From Sphyrna mokarran (lineage: Eukaryota): a DNA stretch of 64,000 nt. Made by a program: the position numbers and the translations under genes. The notes below the pieces were generated by a model, which did no database searches, had not been told where the DNA came from, and saw only the letters and a program-made list of their open reading frames with translations. This document shows positions 547 to 55,663 of this stretch, piece after piece (positions within the stretch are counted from its first letter, which is position 1; each line of letters starts with the position of its first letter). The stretch is taken from positions 8,060,001 to 8,124,000 of the forward strand of contig JAGIQG010000020.1 in NCBI GenBank assembly GCA_024679065.1, given 5' to 3'.

Positions 547-554
547 ATTTGCAT
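547..554 (+). promoter_or_regulatory. Ig light-chain promoter octamer ATTTGCAT
   Basis: Exact ATTTGCAT in light-chain orientation, 126 bp upstream of the leader ATG; AT-rich TATA-like TTAATAAAA at 592-600. Confidence 0.85.
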
Positions 555-679
555 ACATACAGAACAGACAGGTAACGCCTCCTTCACACTGTTAATAAAA
601 AGATATCAGGAGGCAGATAATTCATTCGTTTCATCCAGATACCTGTATCGGTATTTCTGCCCTCCTTCCTGTCGTCACC

Positions 680-728
680 ATGTTTGAGTGGCTCACTGTT
701 GCCGCCGTGCTGTTATCTTTTATGTCAG
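680..728 (+). CDS. IGL: Ig light-chain leader exon (MFEWLTVAAVLLSFMS-G)
   Basis: Kozak-like CACCATG, hydrophobic signal peptide, phase-1 donor G|GTAAAT at 729; 104-bp intron ending TTCTAG at 832. Confidence 0.9.
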
Positions 729-832
729 GTAAATAATTTGACGAAATTTCGTGTTTGTTCTGAATAACGTTTTATTGCCATTTTCGATAGTGACTAAAGG
801 TGTCTGAAGCTTTCGCCTTTGTTCCCTTCTAG

Positions 833-1189
833 GCTCAAACGCGGAATTTACATTAAAGCAACCACTGTCTCTTTCCATTGTCCCGGGAGGAAACGTCGAG
901 ATAAGTTGTACATTGAGCGGGGTCAGTCTGGGAAACGCAGATATAAGCTGGTACCAGCAAAAACCTACTAATGCTCCTCGTTATATGCTGCGCCATAATA
1001 CCGAAACTGTAAACAGAGGCTCCGGTACTCCAGATCGGTTCTCCGGAAGGAGTGACTCGTCCGCCAACACTAGATACTTAACCATCAGCCAGGTACAAAA
1101 GGAGGATGAGGCCGATTACTACTGCGGAGTATGGATTGGCTCTGCTGGATTGTATCTATTCGGGAGTGGAACCAGGCTTTCGGTTTTGA
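833..1189 (+). CDS. IGL: Pre-joined VJ exon of an Ig lambda-type light chain
   Basis: Open frame GSNAEFTLKQP...ISC...WYQQKP...DEADYYC-GVWIGSAGLYL-FGSGTRLSVL, then donor A|GTAAGT at 1190; no heptamer/nonamer between V and J. Confidence 0.95.
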
Positions 1190-1869
1190 GTAAGTTATTT
1201 CACATCGTGATATCATAGGAATGGTGCAAGTTTACAATGTCCTTCTCAAAACAACAAGGTGCTAAACATTGAAAATCAGGCGACACGGAGTTATGAAATA
1301 GGCAGTTCATGTCCAATAATACTTAAAGCATAAACTTAGAAGGTACTACGGACAGGGTGACCTTGCCGTTATGATTGAAGGACTGAGCGTATTCAGTTGA
1401 GTATTTTAAGCCTTTCTTAATCCAAATATTTGGTTAATATTTACACTGTTCCCATCGCCGAACCAGTTTTAATGATTTCTTTTCTTCTCGCACCACCATT
1501 CCCCCTCCCGTACCCACTGATGGATTGAAATGATTTAATTGTTCGGTCGAAAGGGACGCATTGTTTGCAGTTGTTTCCTTTTTCATCTTACAGTCAAAAT
1601 TGCCTATTGTAAGAGGGAGTAGATAGCTAAAGATAATACGCATCAAAAAGCAACTTGCGTTCATTTGGTGCCTTTCATGATCTCAAAACTGTCAATAGGC
1701 CTTCATGTATTGTTACTTTTAAAGTGTAGTCATTGTTGCAATGCAGGGGAATGCGACAGGCATTTCAAGCACAGCGGGTGCAATAAACAGCCATGTGATG
1801 ACTGATCATCATGTGAGGTTATCCATTCTGTCGGGAAAATGGAAAGGCAAGTTAGTATCTAAATGATGA

Positions 1870-2605
1870 GAAATTCAGAGCGTTTGGCAGAGGCAGTTGA
1901 GTGTGCTCATATAAGATTCAGAGAAAACTAGTATGCAGATACAGTATGTAATAGGGAAGACAAATGGAATGCTGGCATTTATTGCTGAAGGAATGGAGAA
2001 GGGAAGTGTTGCTACAACCAGTGAGACCGCACCTGGAGTAACTCCGCGCACACTTCTGCTTACTTGAAAAGGACACAAGAATACTTCAGGAAAGTTGTAG
2101 CTGTACTGGAGACAACTCAGAGGAGGTTCACTAGATTGATTCCAGAGATGAGGGGTTTGTCTTGCGAAGGGAGATTGAGCAGTTTAGGTCTATATTCTCT
2201 AGAGTTTGGAAGAATGAGGGAAGATCTAATTGAGATATATATGATAAAGGGAGGGGGGGAGGTGACAGGGTAGACATAGAGAGAATGATTCCTGTTTTGG
2301 GGTAATCTACAAGGAGAGGTAGCAGTTTTATGATAAGGGGTAGCAGATTTAAAACAGAGATGAGGGGGAACTACTCTGAAAGTGTTGTGGATCTGAAATT
2401 GGCCACGCCAGAGTGGTCTGGATGCAGAACATTGAGTAAATTTGTAGAGGAGATTGACAGATTTGGAGATGGACAGATTTTTAATTAGTAATGCGTTGAA
2501 GAGCTGTGGAAAACGGGCAGGAAAGTGGAGTGAGACCTAGATGAGATCAGCAATGATCGAATTGAATGGCGGAGTGGGCTGGAGGAACTGATTGGCCACT
2601 CCGAC
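1870..2605 (+). mobile_element. CR1-type LINE 3' remnant in the J-C intron
   Basis: Degenerate RT C-terminus (QRRFTRLIPEMRGLS...GLYSLEF...REDLIE) plus typical CR1 3' UTR. Confidence 0.8.
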
Positions 2606-2779
2606 TGCGGAGTACTTCAATCCAGAGGGATCTGGATGTCCTCAAACAACAAATGAATCAACAGTCCAGTTTACATCCGTCATGATTTTTGCGTTCGTTG
2701 AAATCGATCTGTGAGTTGTATAAGTCAAATTCAAAATCTAGTCTGTGTTTTGAGTTCATGGATATCTTTACTTCCTAAA

Positions 2780-3043
2780 ATCATGCAATCCCTACAGTAC
2801 AGAAAGAGGTCGTTCAGCCAATCAATCCCACCAGGCCCTATCCCTGTAACCCCATACATTTACTTTGGTAATTTCCCGACACTAAGGAGCCGGGCCGATC
2901 AATCTAACCCTGCTCATCTTTGGACTGTAGGAGGAAACCGAAGTAGACACGAGGAGAACATGCAGGCTCCACACAGACAGTGACCCAAGGCCAGAATTGG
3001 CCCCTGGCGCTGAGAGGCAGCAGTGCTAATCACTGTGCCACCC
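2780..3043 (-). mobile_element. HE1-like tRNA-derived SINE
   Basis: Reverse complement of GGTGGCACAGTG..TTAGCACTGCTGCCTC head and GGTTTCCTCC core. Confidence 0.8.
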
Positions 3044-3943
3044 ATGAAATAAGGAGTTAGCACAGGAATACTAGGCAAGATAATTTCATTACTGTGAAGA
3101 GGATGAGAGAGATAACTTGCAATGAGTAAAGGCAAAGTACTGCGGCTGCTGGAATCTGCAATAAGCAATATATTGGGATGCCCGTGACTGAATGTGATAC
3201 TGGGGGTGAAAAAAAATGGTCGTAATTGTGGGAAGACTTGAATAAATGTCACAGAGTAACGTAGCTCCAAAATTGTATAATGTTTCATGGACAATGCGTT
3301 TCCCCTTGATTTGCCCGGGGATCAGTTTGTTAGAAACATATGACATAAATCAAATCCTACGAGAACAGAGCGGGGATTTGCCCTGGGGCAAATTTAATTT
3401 CCTTATAACATTATTGGGTTTTTAAATGAAATATTGCAAACATAACAGCTACCCCGGGCAATGAGGCGAATAAAAGGTGAGTTTGATTGAGGCTAGGTCA
3501 TGAAATGTGTAAATGCAGCACAACTGTAGTTCGATATTTGATTTAGGATAAAGATCAGGCCCTTCGGCCCTCCAAGCCCATGCCGATCATGCTGTTCTAT
3601 TTAGAACAACCGCTTGCAATCTTTATTCCCCATTAGTTGATGTGTCTATCCAGATAAGACTTAAATGTCGCTACAGTAAAACATATGACCACCTGATTCA
3701 AAGACCTTCAGTCGATAAGATACAATATTCGATGCATTTAGCAACATTAACTATCGCATTTATAGAAATCATCATTTTCAGGACGCGAGGTAAAATAACA
3801 TTGGGTATTTCAGGGTTTCAGCCGAGGTTACGGCGGAGAAAAGGGCGAGAAACCCAGTGAAAATCATCACCCCTTCTTAAGTCTCGAATTGCTGTCACGT
3901 CTGATTGATTTGCTTCTCTACTTTTTATTATACCCCTTTACAG

Positions 3944-4272
3944 CCCAGGCGAAGTCTCGCCCCTCTGTGTCTCTTTTCCCTCCGGCGCCCGATCAAATCT
4001 CTGCAGCAAACACGGCGACCCTAACGTGCTTGGTGACTAACTTCTTTCCCAGTTCTGTGCAAGTTTCCTGGACCGTCGACGACAAAGCAATGAAAACCGG
4101 CGTTCAGACAATTCAGCCCGTGGCGGACACCAACAAGACGTACAGTGTGAGCAGTTACCTGACCCTGAGCGCCGCCGACTGGAATTCGCACGAAGTGTAC
4201 ACCTGCGGGGTCACACATGAATCTCTGGTGTCTGAACTTCAGAAAAGCATCAAGAGATCACTCTGCCAGTGA
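3944..4272 (+). CDS. IGL: Ig lambda-type constant exon (C1-set domain ending ...KRSLCQ*)
   Basis: Polypyrimidine tract and TACAG acceptor; phase matches the J donor (A+CC=Thr); PSVSLFPP, TLTCLV, SSYLTL, YTCGVTHE motifs; penultimate Cys for H-L bond; TGA at 4270-4272. Confidence 0.95.
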
Positions 4273-4399
4273 TAGAGACAATTAACATCTGGGCATTGGC
4301 AACGAACAAGATTTCAATACAGTTTTGTTTGTAATCTTAGAATTGATTTATTAAATGCATCACAGACGGATTTCACATAATCAAATTAAAATATTGTTA

Positions 4400-4467
4400 A
4401 ATAAAGTCACATTTCATCAGCAAGGTCAATGCGTCAATCTTTTTTAAACTAAACTAGCGTCAATAAA
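4400..4467 (+). terminator. Poly(A) signals of the light-chain gene
   Basis: AATAAA at 4400-4405 and 4462-4467, downstream of the C-exon stop. Confidence 0.6.
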
Positions 4468-6580: not shown

Positions 6581-8419
6581 TTTACAACTTTAGGTATACC
6601 GGCGCACTTTACGTTTAATCAAGTAACATTTATGTCACAGAAACTATTCAATAATAATGCAATGACAGGAAGTTATTATTTTGTAGATTTACGTGATTTG
6701 CTGGAATAAGAAGAAATTTTTCTTAAGAAGAAATTTCTAAGACGTTTTATTCAGGAGATTAAATGGATTGAATAGCATCACATTGTTATAGATTGTCAGT
6801 AAACTCTGCATCAAGGACAAGCTCAAAAGGGGAAGTGGTAAACTAGTGGTAATGCTGCTGCACTAATAATCCACTGGTCCAGACTAATGCCACGGGAACA
6901 TGGGTTCAAATCCCACTATAGCTTGTGGAATTGAAATTCAATTAGCTAGTCTCAGTTATAGTAACCATGAAACAATCAGTGACTGTTGTAACAGGCTATT
7001 GGCTCATTTATATCCTTCAGAGAAGATAATCTGCCATCCTTACCTAACTTTGTCTACATGGGACTCCAGGTATAATTCTTAGCTGCCCTCTGAAATGGCC
7101 AAACAAACCATTTAGTTCATGCCAATTACAATGGGCAACAAATGTTGGCCCTGCCACATCCCATGAAAGAAAAGATATAAACTGAATATCACTTTTTGTT
7201 TTATGTGCCCTTCTGCATATGAACATCGGATAAAGGAGGAGTGTGCTTATTTATCTATCAGCAGATGATCTTTTACCCCATAGAAAGGAACAGAAGAGAA
7301 GGAAAATTATTCAGAGGGAAAAAAACTCACAAGTATTTTAAACTGAAAAGTCTTAACTTTAGGTTGCAAGATAGGTGGCTAGTCAGAATAGCATTGGGAA
7401 AGTTTTTGCATAAGTGTCTAAGCGGGTAGTCTTGTTAATGGCATGGCTATGGGTCACAAAGCTCATCCCAGGTCAGATATGATTTCATTCTTATGACTCA
7501 TTTATATCAGTCTCAGACAATTGCCAGAGGGTTGAATCAGTAACTGGGAAATAAGGATTGTATTGGAAAGCAATGATAATAGTATGATCTTTCCAATATT
7601 TAGAGGATTTTTTTTATTTGTTTATGGGATGTGGGCATCGTTGGCTGGGTCAGCATTTATCACCCATCCTGGGGGCAGTTAAGCATCAACCACACTGCTG
7701 TGGGTCTGGAGTCACATGTAGGCCAGACCAGGTAAGGATGGCAGATTTCTTTCCCCTTCACTGGTGAATCAGCTGGGCTTTTCCAACTAGTTATGTCATC
7801 ATCACTGGATTTCTAATTCAAGGCTTTCACTGAATACAAATTTCATTATCTGCTGTGGTGAGATTTGAAACCGGGTTCTCAGACCATTACTCTTAGTCTC
7901 TGGACTACTAGTCCAGTGACAATACCACTACACCACAGCTTCTGCTCATACAATACAGCGTGTCAGATAAACATTCTGATTAATCAACGGTAGTGAGTAG
8001 GTCAAAAGGGATCAGACTGGATATCATCAGCATCTAACTGAAACTTGAAATGATATTTTCTGATAATGCCACCAAGTAGAAATATTTAGTTAAGAAATGG
8101 AAAGGAGACAGGGATGGACTTTTTGGTGAATGCCTGAAGTAACTATGAAGGACAGCAAGGGAAGCCATGCAGGTGATTCTCTGGCAAACACTGGAGAGAT
8201 ATAAATGGAACTAGGTGAAGGACAGTCAGCACAGGAGAAGGAGTTGAAAGGAAAATCTGGCAAAGTCTCGGGGAATCATGTGGAGTTGGAGCACAAGATC
8301 AGTTGTGATCATATTGAATGGCACAGCAGGCTTGAGAGACTATGTGGTCTTCTCCTGCTCTTTTTCTTTAATTCATACTATTTTAGGTGGTATGGGTCAT
8401 GAATTTCAGATGTACTATC

Positions 8420-53457: not shown

Positions 53458-55185
53458 TTACAGATAGTGTGTCATGAAGCCAAGATCCCTGTTAAGACCG
53501 TCCTCATGTGTGCGGACCTTGGCTATCAGTCTCTGTTCAGCGACTCTGCGCTGTCGTGTATCACGAAAGCCCCCCTGAAGAACATTTACCCGCAGGTCGG
53601 AGGCCGAATGCCCATGACTGCTGAAGTGTTCGCCCACAGGAAGGGAACTGTTTTGCCTGGTGATTGTTGAGCGATGCTCATTCATCCGCTGTCGTAGTGT
53701 CTGCATGGTCTCCCCAATGTACCACGCTTCGGGACATCCTTTCTTGCAACGTATTAGGTAGACAACATTGGCCGAGTTGCAAGGGTATGTACCGTGTACC
53801 TGGTGAATGGTATCCTCACGTTTGATGATGTCGTCCATGTCTATGATCCGGCATGTCTTGCAGAGGTTGCTGTGGCAGGGTTGTGTGGTATTGTGGTCAC
53901 TGTTCTCCTAAAGGTTGGGTAGTTTGCTGCGAACAATGATCTGTTTGAGGTTGTGCGGTTGTCTGAAAGCAAGAAGTGGGGGGGTGGGGATGGCCCTAGT
54001 GAGATGTTCATCGTCATCAATGATATGTTGAAGACTCCGGAGAAGATGTCATAGCTTCTCCGCTCCGGGGAAGTACTGGACAACAAAGGGTACTCTGTCC
54101 ACCGTGTCCCGTGTTCATCTTCTGAGGAGGTCAGTGCGGTTTATCGCTGTGGCATGTCAGAACTATCGATCGATGAGTCAAGCGCCATATCCTGTTCTCA
54201 CTAGGGCATCCTTCAGCGTCTGGAGATGTCTGTCACGATCCTCCTCATCTGAGCAAATTCTGTGTATACGGAGGGCTTGTCCATAGGGAATGGCTTCTTT
54301 AACATGTCTAGGGTGGAAGCTGGAGAAGTGGAGCATTGTGAAGTTGTCTGTCAGTTTGCGGTATAGCAAGGTGCTGAAGTGACTGTCCTTGATGGAGATG
54401 CGTGTGTCCAAGAATGCAACTGATTCTGGAGAATAGTCCATGATGAGTCTGATGGTGGGATGGAACTTGTTGATATCATCATACAATTGTTTCAATGATT
54501 GTTCACCATGAGTCCAAAGGAAAAAGATGTCATCAATGTATCTAGTATATAACCTTGGTTGAAGATCTCGTATGGTGAAGAAGTCTTGTTCGAACCTGTG
54601 CATGAAGATGTTGGCATACTGAGGTGCGAATTTGGTCCCCATGACTGTTCCATGTGTCTGGATGAAAAGCTGATTGTTGAAGGTGAAGACATTGTGGTCC
54701 AAGATGAAGCAGATGAGTTGTAAAATTGCATCCGGAAACTGGCAGTTGTTGGCATTGAGTACTGAAGCAGTTGCAGCAATACCATCATTGTGGGGGATGT
54801 TGGTGTAGAGCGCCGAGACATCCATTGTGACAAGGAGTGTCCCTGGTTCAACTGCTCCATGTGTGCTGAGTTTCTGTAGGAAGTCCGTAGTGTCAAGACA
54901 AAAGCCGGGGGTTCTTTGTACAATGGGTTTCAGGATGCCCTCGATATAGCCAGAGAAGTTCTCACACAAGGTCCCATTGCCCGATACAATGGGACGGCCG
55001 GGTATGTTTGCCTTGAGTATCTTTGGGAGGCAGTAGAGATCTCCAATGCGGGGAGTACGTGGAATGAGAACCCGGAGGGTGTTCTGAAGGTCCAGATCAA
55101 AGGTTTTGATCAGAGTGTTGAGTTGACGAGTGTGTTCTTTGGTCAGATCTGCTGGTAACTGTCTGTAGTGTTTCACATTGTTTAG
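53458..55185 (-). pseudogene. PLE RT/GIY-YIG ORF, disrupted
   Basis: Long open RT segment, in-frame TGA at 54178 and further breaks before the endonuclease segment 53458-53838. Confidence 0.85.
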
Positions 55186-55663
55186 TTCACATTGGGGAGA
55201 CCATGCAGACACTACGACAGCGGGTGAATGAGCGTCGCTCAACAATCACCAGGCAAAACAGTTCCCTTCCTGTGGGCGAACACTTCAGCAGTCATGGGCA
55301 TTCGGCCTCCGACATGCGGGTAAATGTTCTTCAAGGGGGCCTTCGTGACACACGACAGCGCAGAGTCGCTGAGCAGAGACTGATAGCCAAGTTCCGCACA
55401 CGAGGACGGTCTTAATAGGGATCTTGGCTTCATGTCACACTATCTGTAACCCCTGTAACTTGCCTGGGTTAGCAAAGAACCTCACTTACTGTGCTGTCTG
55501 GAGAAAATACACAATTGTCGAACCAATGCTCAGGATTCCCTTCACACACATTGTTAGCCACTTTAACACTTGAATAGCAGGTTAGATGTAAGGATTCGCA
55601 TTCTAATCAGCAATTTGTGACTGTCCGTGTTGATATGTGCGCTATTGCAGACCAGAACACTGC

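What the first reader, a model, noticed from the sequence alone, without database searches (positions are those of the whole stretch)
680..4272. Pre-joined lambda-type light chain with an unusually long CDR2: possible distinct isotype or invariant surrogate-like chain
Seen: V and J are fused in frame with a fixed 11-aa CDR3 (GVWIGSAGLYL, 1126-1158), there is no RSS, and promoter, splice sites and C exon are intact. The CDR2 region (HNTETVNRGS, about 10 aa versus 7 in most V-lambda/kappa) is long, and FR3 has a 2-aa insertion (FSGRSDSSANTRYL). Known: chondrichthyan type II (lambda) clusters are germline-joined, so joining alone is expected; long CDR2 plus FR3 insertion is typical of VpreB and IGLV5-like domains. 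Inference: this may be a divergent lambda/lambda-2 lineage. A RAG-independent invariant chain could pair with nascent H chains as a surrogate light chain, which to my knowledge has not been described in sharks.
Basis: partly seen in the sequence, partly recalled or inferred. Interest (0 to 1): 0.7.

Follow-up and report, generated by a model that had tools for sequence, protein, structure and literature searches.

The report
Ancient low-copy shark lambda light chain
This is an intact, transcribed shark antibody light-chain gene that is inherited already assembled and belongs to an old, low-copy branch of the lambda class kept in sharks and rays; it likely works as a fixed-shape ordinary antibody partner rather than as a new class or a stand-in chain for immature B cells.

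Summary
The gene is real, intact, joined in frame without RSS, and spliced in an independent sample with the same join. It sits at the edge of an array of about 20 lambda clusters, nearly all joined. Long CDR2 and the FR3 insertion are each common among those neighbours; only this gene (A) and its neighbour (B) have both. A is one copy here, with orthologues in 11 other sharks and rays that all keep loop lengths 8/6/11. A and B share their own C type, sister to ordinary shark C-lambda. So it is a second, old lambda subclass. It fails the lambda-2 loop lengths and lacks VpreB/lambda5 tails; a pre-B role is untested. The C-sister of this subclass is an unjoined cluster with lambda-type RSS, against the published statement that shark lambda is always germline-joined. 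This scan met the same subclass before in other genomes (e1-9388726, e1-9594545).

The parts
547..554 (+). Ig promoter octamer (ATTTGCAT)
   Evidence: an octamer lies at a similar distance upstream in most other clusters of the array
680..728 (+). leader exon (16 codons plus one base), GT donor at 729
   Evidence: spliced to the V exon in run X2 (104 bases skipped, GT..AG)
833..1189 (+). germline-joined V-J exon of gene A
   Evidence: Pfam V-set; model pLDDT 94; same join in run X2 and joined DNA in run X4
994..1011 (+). CDR2, 6 residues by IMGT-style count (10 in a Kabat-like count, to 1023)
1126..1158 (+). fixed 11-residue CDR3 across the V-J join, no RSS
1190..3943 (+). J-C intron with interspersed repeats
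   Evidence: run X2 continues from 1189 directly into the C exon
3944..4272 (+). C exon of the second C-lambda type, with the C-terminal Cys for the H-L bond, stop 4270-4272
4400..4405 (+). polyadenylation signal
   Evidence: the retrocopy L077 ends in a run of A just behind the matching place

Best explanation
This is an intact, germline-joined, spliced lambda light-chain minigene of a second, low-copy elasmobranch lambda subclass with its own C domain, and it likely works as an ordinary light chain that pairs with IgM or IgW heavy chains and supplies one fixed set of binding loops. Shown: gene anatomy, no RSS, splicing, one copy in this genome, one-to-one orthologues with fixed loop lengths in sharks and rays, and a C clade apart from ordinary type II. 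Inferred: V and J were joined once, by RAG in a germ cell of the shark-ray ancestor, from a split 23/12-RSS cluster like the one still at the far end of the array; a B cell then switches the gene on from its octamer promoter without rearrangement; diversity can come only from the heavy chain and from hypermutation; the C exons of A and B are partly homogenised within species while the V exons stay distinct.
For: Anatomy and splicing. V identity to own-genome lambda 41-59%, kappa 40-47%, sigma 35-36%, sigma-2-like 27%; C identity to B 75%, split cluster S 59%, ordinary lambda 49-56%, kappa 43-44%, sigma 36-37%, sigma-2-like 32%. C trees: all chondrichthyan lambda C on one side (93/86 and 91/86, not starred), split into ordinary + chimaera (99/96, 98/95) and A/B + S (99/95, 95/93). 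V tree: A orthologues one clade, 98/96. 13 of 13 A-type proteins have loops 8/6/11. VL interface positions and the C-terminal Cys are normal. The 50 best Foldseek matches are antibody or light-chain entries, none titled pre-BCR or VpreB. IFT81 on the same contig, 18 Mb away. A related species' transcript differs at 16 silent and 12 changed codons (31 of 36 differences listed; 80 silent and 265 replacement sites), which fits purifying selection. Precedents for fixed light chains: sterlet lambda and the joined sigma-2 partner of IgM1gj.
Against: Pairing, cell type, stage and mutation load were not observed. Deep V relationships are unresolved: no grouping of A/B V with other lambda families, IGLV5-like V, kappa or sigma was rejected (p-AU 0.16-0.44). 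In C, A/B+S with kappa gave p 0.062 and with the sigma-2-like row p 0.17, and the branch uniting all shark lambda is not starred. No lambda-2, VpreB or lambda5 sequence was in any tree. One- to two-copy retention with fixed loop lengths for at least 200 Myr is more than an interchangeable repertoire gene needs and hints at a dedicated job. No deposited cDNA among the 120 listed hits was A- or B-type, so expression may be low or restricted.
Confidence: 0.72

Rival explanations
1. A dedicated innate-like or neonatal light chain: A pairs preferentially with one heavy chain class or a germline-joined heavy chain to make a pre-set antibody against a conserved ligand. This is a specialised version of the best explanation.
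For: One-to-one orthologues and fixed loop lengths; CDR1 identity across species (0.68) as high as frameworks (0.63-0.75) in A, and CDR2 0.85 in B; X2 contigs match the germline except one half-depth change; IgM1gj uses a joined sigma-2 partner.
Against: CDR2 and CDR3 of A are only about 0.5 identical across species, not far above the multicopy families (CDR2 0.47-0.61, CDR3 0.34-0.42). Contigs drop rare variants, so they cannot show lack of mutation. No partner was identified.
Confidence: 0.15
2. A surrogate-like chain: A is made before any light chain is chosen and tests or escorts new heavy chains in the epigonal or Leydig organ.
For: RAG-independent, low-copy, conserved; long CDR2 plus FR3 insertion as in IGLV5-like domains; authentic light chains can replace the surrogate chain in pigs; the idea that a rejoined gene can take such a role is in PMC2193156.
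Against: No VpreB or lambda5 tail, no split into two chains. 17 of the 18 measured V genes of the array are joined. No A-type protein appeared for carpet sharks, catsharks or skates among the 120 listed hits although weaker lambda hits of these groups did, which an essential checkpoint gene would not predict; annotation gaps may explain it. Surrogate genes are reported in eutherians only.
Confidence: 0.08
3. A separate isotype, or the missing cartilaginous-fish lambda-2.
For: C is only about 50-56% identical to ordinary shark C-lambda; the split relative S has lambda-type RSS and a 3-residue CDR2, as lambda-2 does; V trees do not resolve.
Against: Same array as ordinary lambda and same contig as IFT81; C groups with shark lambda in both models; grouping A/B+S with tetrapod and lungfish C was borderline rejected (p 0.049); A's loops fail the lambda-2 range; A lacks the two-Cys CDR3 of the two lambda-2 sequences I read in the supplement of PMC5985310 (compared by eye only).
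Confidence: 0.05

Closest known systems
Cartilaginous-fish Ig lambda (type II, nurse-shark NS3, sandbar-shark lambda AAA86749)
   Same: VJ-C minicluster, germline join, same array, octamer promoter, FR3 insertion, C in the chondrichthyan lambda group
   Different: Own C type (50% to the sandbar C), CDR2 6 against 2-4, one copy here and one-to-one orthologues instead of species-specific expansion
Sterlet IgL3, true lambda (PMC5985310)
   Same: Single cluster, homogeneous junction, long CDR2 with FR3 insertion, 11-residue CDR3 starting GVW, IFT81 on the same contig or scaffold
   Different: Sterlet still rearranges by 23/12 RSS; orthology with A is not shown (sequence read, not treed)
Long-CDR2 V-lambda of coelacanth, frogs, turtles and mammals (IGLV5-like; label recalled)
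   Same: Long CDR2 plus FR3 insertion; 53-54% V identity
   Different: CDR2 7 against 6; they are rearranging segments; a shared clade with A/B is neither found nor rejected (p-AU 0.16)
Mammalian surrogate light chain, VpreB plus lambda5 (PMC9614664)
   Same: Invariant, RAG-independent, lambda-derived
   Different: Two chains with charged unique tails in place of CDR3; A is one complete chain with a normal CDR3 and no tails
Germline-joined sigma-2 partner of nurse-shark IgM1gj (PMC4279169, PMC5192425)
   Same: Pre-set light chain; a model for what A may do
   Different: Other isotype: the sigma-2-like joined gene of this genome is 27% (V) and 32% (C) identical

Membership tests
Ig lambda (chondrichthyan) | C domain groups with shark and chimaera C-lambda | tested here: met
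   93/86 and 91/86 with the mixture model; not starred
Ig lambda (chondrichthyan) | Lies in the lambda locus; linkage to IFT81 as in sterlet and gar | tested here: met
   Within the array of about 20 clusters; IFT81 on the same 52.5-Mb contig but 18 Mb away
Ig lambda (chondrichthyan) | CDR1 3-9 and CDR2 3-7 (IMGT) | tested here: met
   8 and 6
Ig lambda (chondrichthyan) | V-23 / 12-J RSS polarity | tested here: inconclusive
   A is joined and has none; its C-sister cluster S has 23/12
Ig lambda (chondrichthyan) | V domain groups with other lambda V | tested here: inconclusive
   Polytomy; no alternative rejected
Ordinary type II / NS3 clusters | Shared type II C domain | tested here: not met
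   49-56% identity; A/B plus ordinary elasmobranch C alone rejected, p-AU 0.018
Ig lambda-2 | CDR1 5-7 and CDR2 2-3 | tested here: not met
   8 and 6
Ig lambda-2 | V and C cluster with gar, bichir and teleost lambda-2 | not testable with these tools
   No lambda-2 sequence was returned by the searches; supplement sequences compared by eye only
Ig sigma-2 / sigma | CDR2 7 (sigma-2) or 9-10 (sigma) and close V and C similarity | tested here: not met
   CDR2 6; V 27-36%, C 32-37%. The sigma-2 label of L073 is mine, from loop lengths and likeness by eye to ropefish sigma-2; AU tests with that long branch did not reject (p 0.17, 0.28)
Surrogate light chain (VpreB + lambda5) | Separate V and J-C chains with charged C- and N-terminal unique regions | tested here: not met
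   One V-J-C reading frame, 16-codon leader, no tails
Surrogate light chain (VpreB + lambda5) | Expression limited to pro- and pre-B cells, with new heavy chains | not testable with these tools
   Tissue of run X2 not on record

The most novel reading that the evidence does not exclude
Elasmobranchs carry a second lambda subclass, not found described in the papers searched, in which gene A is a fixed light chain kept for over 200 million years for a dedicated early job, escorting or testing new heavy chains as a convergent surrogate chain, while its sister cluster S is a still-rearranging shark lambda gene that shows the joined lambda genes are secondary.
Probability: 0.1. Interest if true: 0.8.

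Novelty: new variant of a known kind. Interest (0 to 1): 0.47.

Why it matters
Reviews list four shark light-chain isotypes and treat lambda as one, wholly germline-joined class. A second C-lambda subclass with one-to-one conserved, fixed-loop genes gives a concrete, testable candidate for the long-standing idea that rejoined Ig genes take on special roles (PMC2193156). It may have been missed because no A-type gene appeared for carpet sharks, the group of the nurse-shark model (taxonomy recalled). The unjoined sister cluster bears on whether shark lambda genes were never split or were rejoined.

Tried and rejected
Reading the long-CDR2 neighbours (L004-L007, L009) as sigma-2: dropped, they sit on ordinary type II C exons. 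Searches for a sigma-2 C with lambda and sigma C queries found none among 150 scored of 403 and 315 candidates; a joined sigma-2-like gene turned up by hand in L073. Confirming the join in raw genomic reads of a second individual: run X16 was read to 3% and had no depth over 1104-1190, so no verdict. No RNA holder is on record; X2 and X5 are RNA by guess, but their contigs are spliced. Motif look-ups for VpreB and VpreB3 (motifs recalled) among stored proteins found no true member. The PDB sequence searches list only 60 hits, mostly multi-domain constructs, so the rank of VpreB is unknown. AU tests on V resolved nothing. Trees used subsets: 78, 37 and 35 C rows of about 150, and 79 and 42 V rows of about 155. 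A complex prediction with a heavy-chain V was not sent, since VH-VL pairs pass by likeness. Not held, so not seen: Criscitiello and Flajnik 2007, Iacoangeli 2017, Flajnik 2024, Hohman 1993; PMC2192082 gave no passage for my terms. These or their supplements could already describe this subclass or a split lambda. The protein atlas did not answer.

Full report
Observation. The window is G000:C772:8060001-8124000. The gene has an octamer at 547-554, ATG at 680, a leader exon to 728, a V-J exon 833-1189, a C exon 3944-4272 and AATAAA at 4400; all splice sites are canonical and the frame is open. CDR3 is the 11 residues at 1126-1158. An RSS scan found 0 sites in 600-4300 and did find those of kappa, sigma and split-lambda controls. 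Pfam gives V-set and C1-set. The V model is confident (pLDDT 94), and its 50 best structural matches are antibody or light-chain entries, none titled pre-BCR or VpreB.

Germline and expressed. Contigs of run X2 (same species label, another sample and study) splice leader to V and V-J to C. They match the assembly over 831-1189 apart from one half-depth change at 1088, which looks like a second allele. Run X5 (another species) holds a spliced 960-base orthologue with no gap across CDR3, and run X4 (another species) holds DNA running from V through J into the intron. So the join is inherited, not a lymphocyte product. Raw reads of X16 were too thin to say anything. Tissue and stage are unknown.

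Context. A DNA search found 1 match in the genome. Protein searches show 20 V and 21 C hits on this contig in two blocks, 7.93-8.06 Mb and 8.72-8.99 Mb (lower bounds). Kappa, sigma and a sigma-2-like gene lie on other contigs. Of 18 V domains measured, 17 are joined. They fall into five types: this gene (A), its neighbour about 17 kb away on the other strand (B), long-CDR2 genes on the ordinary C, short-CDR2 genes on the ordinary C (the sandbar-shark type), and one split cluster (S) at the far end. Six of 18 have a CDR2 of 6-7 residues and 14 of 18 have the FR3 insertion; only A and B have both. IFT81, linked to true lambda in sterlet and gar, is on the same contig, though 18 Mb away.

Relatives. 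A has orthologues in 11 other sharks and rays (57-87% identity), among them Mustelus, Cetorhinus, Heterodontus, Heptranchias, Pristiophorus, Pristis, Narcine, Mobula and stingrays; one stingray has two. All 13 of 13 A-type proteins measured have loops of 8, 6 and 11; the 16 B-type proteins have 8, 6 and 9 or 6. In V trees A (98/96) and B (100/98) are each one clade spanning sharks and rays. The simplest reading is one joining event before sharks and rays parted, at least 200 Myr ago by the date in PMC2193156. No A-type protein appeared for carpet sharks, catsharks, skates or chimaera among the 120 listed hits of 2164 (only 7901 candidates scored). In Chiloscyllium plagiosum two B-type genes and two long-CDR2 genes carry consecutive accessions, as if a second B fills A's place; this is inferred from numbering only.

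Class. In C trees, A and B form a clade (99/97-98), sister to S (99/95 and 95/93 in the reduced sets; 96/70 in the full set). That group is sister to ordinary shark plus chimaera C-lambda, and all chondrichthyan lambda C lie on one side at 93/86 and 91/86. Nesting A/B with ordinary elasmobranch C alone is rejected (p-AU 0.018). An elasmobranch-only grouping is not (p 0.15), so an origin before the chimaera split is the best tree but not shown. Within the clade, A and B C exons often pair by species (Narcine, Heterodontus, Pristiophorus), which suggests gene conversion. Deep V branches are unresolved. Lambda-2 fails on loop lengths and could not be treed. Sigma and the sigma-2-like gene are far by identity.

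How it likely works. The protein has a normal leader, normal VL interface positions and the C-terminal Cys, so it likely pairs with IgM or IgW heavy chains as any light chain does. Needing no RAG step, it can be switched on from its octamer promoter and supplies fixed loops; variety would come from the heavy chain and hypermutation (inferred from what is published for joined shark genes). Differences to the X5 orthologue lean to silent sites (16 silent, 12 changed codons; 31 of 36 differences listed). CDR1 is as conserved as the frameworks, but CDR2 and CDR3 are only about half identical across species, so lengths are fixed and sequences are not. Close parallels are the single homogeneous lambda of sterlet and the joined sigma-2 partner of IgM1gj.

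Surrogate idea. VpreB and lambda5 are two chains defined by charged tails and are reported only in eutherians (PMC9614664); reviews report none in fish. A has no such tails, and RAG independence is shared with its whole array. A purely functional role in precursors is not excluded, because stage of expression is untested.

The split relative. S has a V ending in a 23-spacer RSS and a J behind a 12-spacer RSS 258 bases on, with leader, octamer and C intact; a stop replaces the conserved Trp here. Gene models of S orthologues in five other shark species have no stop, and the Mustelus model reads through what is the J heptamer here, which suggests it is split too (inferred). PMC12227049, PMC5192425 and PMC4279169 state that cartilaginous-fish lambda is entirely germline-joined.

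Literature seen. PMC5985310: passages, Phylogenetic Analyses, Discussion, supplementary tables 3 and 5, parts 2-3 of figure S7, and passages of other supplements. PMC5192425, PMC2193156, PMC4279169, PMC12227049, PMC8873125, PMC9614664: passages. PMC6901605: one reference line. PMC2192082: a term search with no passage. Nine searches showed no description of this subclass or of a split shark lambda, but four key papers are not held. IMGT-style positions and labels such as IGLV5-like are from my own knowledge. Two earlier notes of this scan describe the B side of the same subclass in other genomes; I read them after my trees were built.

Verdict. Observation confirmed. A new variant of a known kind: a second, old, low-copy lambda subclass. 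Not lambda-2 by the testable feature, not a VpreB/lambda5 member. Interest 0.47.

Noticed in passing
L066:1702-2523 and 7834-8158 (G000:C772, about 8,979,700-8,986,160): An unjoined lambda-type cluster: V with 23-spacer RSS, J with 12-spacer RSS, intact leader and C, stop at the conserved V Trp. Its C is sister to the A/B type, and orthologous gene models without the stop exist in five other shark species. It runs against the statement that shark lambda is always germline-joined.
   Followed up: partly
L077:4250-5890, minus strand (G000:C224, about 25.43 Mb): A decayed processed copy of an A-type transcript (J fused to C, 3' UTR, run of A; 69-78% identical) with an 800-base insertion in V, which suggests such mRNA once reached the germ line.
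   Followed up: partly
L073 (G000:C994:512,230-515,170, minus strand): A germline-joined V-J with one C exon on the heavy-chain contig; loops 8 and 7 and likeness by eye to ropefish sigma-2 suggest sigma-2.
   Followed up: partly
L004-L007, L009 (G000:C772:7.93-8.02 Mb): A long-CDR2 (7-residue) V-lambda family on ordinary type II C exons, present across sharks, skates and rays; its loop lengths mimic sigma-2.
   Followed up: partly
L021, L022, L024, L072, L097-L100 (G000:C224:87.1-88.0 Mb): An array of about 20 single-exon V-J-like domains with a short G-x-G-T strand and no light-chain C found nearby; relatives in the protein library are multi-V proteins.
   Followed up: no
window 53458-55245, minus strand: Reverse transcriptase plus GIY-YIG frames, a Penelope-like retroelement (class name recalled). 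No other Ig exon lies in the window.
   Followed up: no
L023, L030, L062, L063 (G000:C838:36.02-36.09 Mb): Four sigma clusters; the two V genes read are unjoined, and L023 has a 12-spacer RSS.
   Followed up: no
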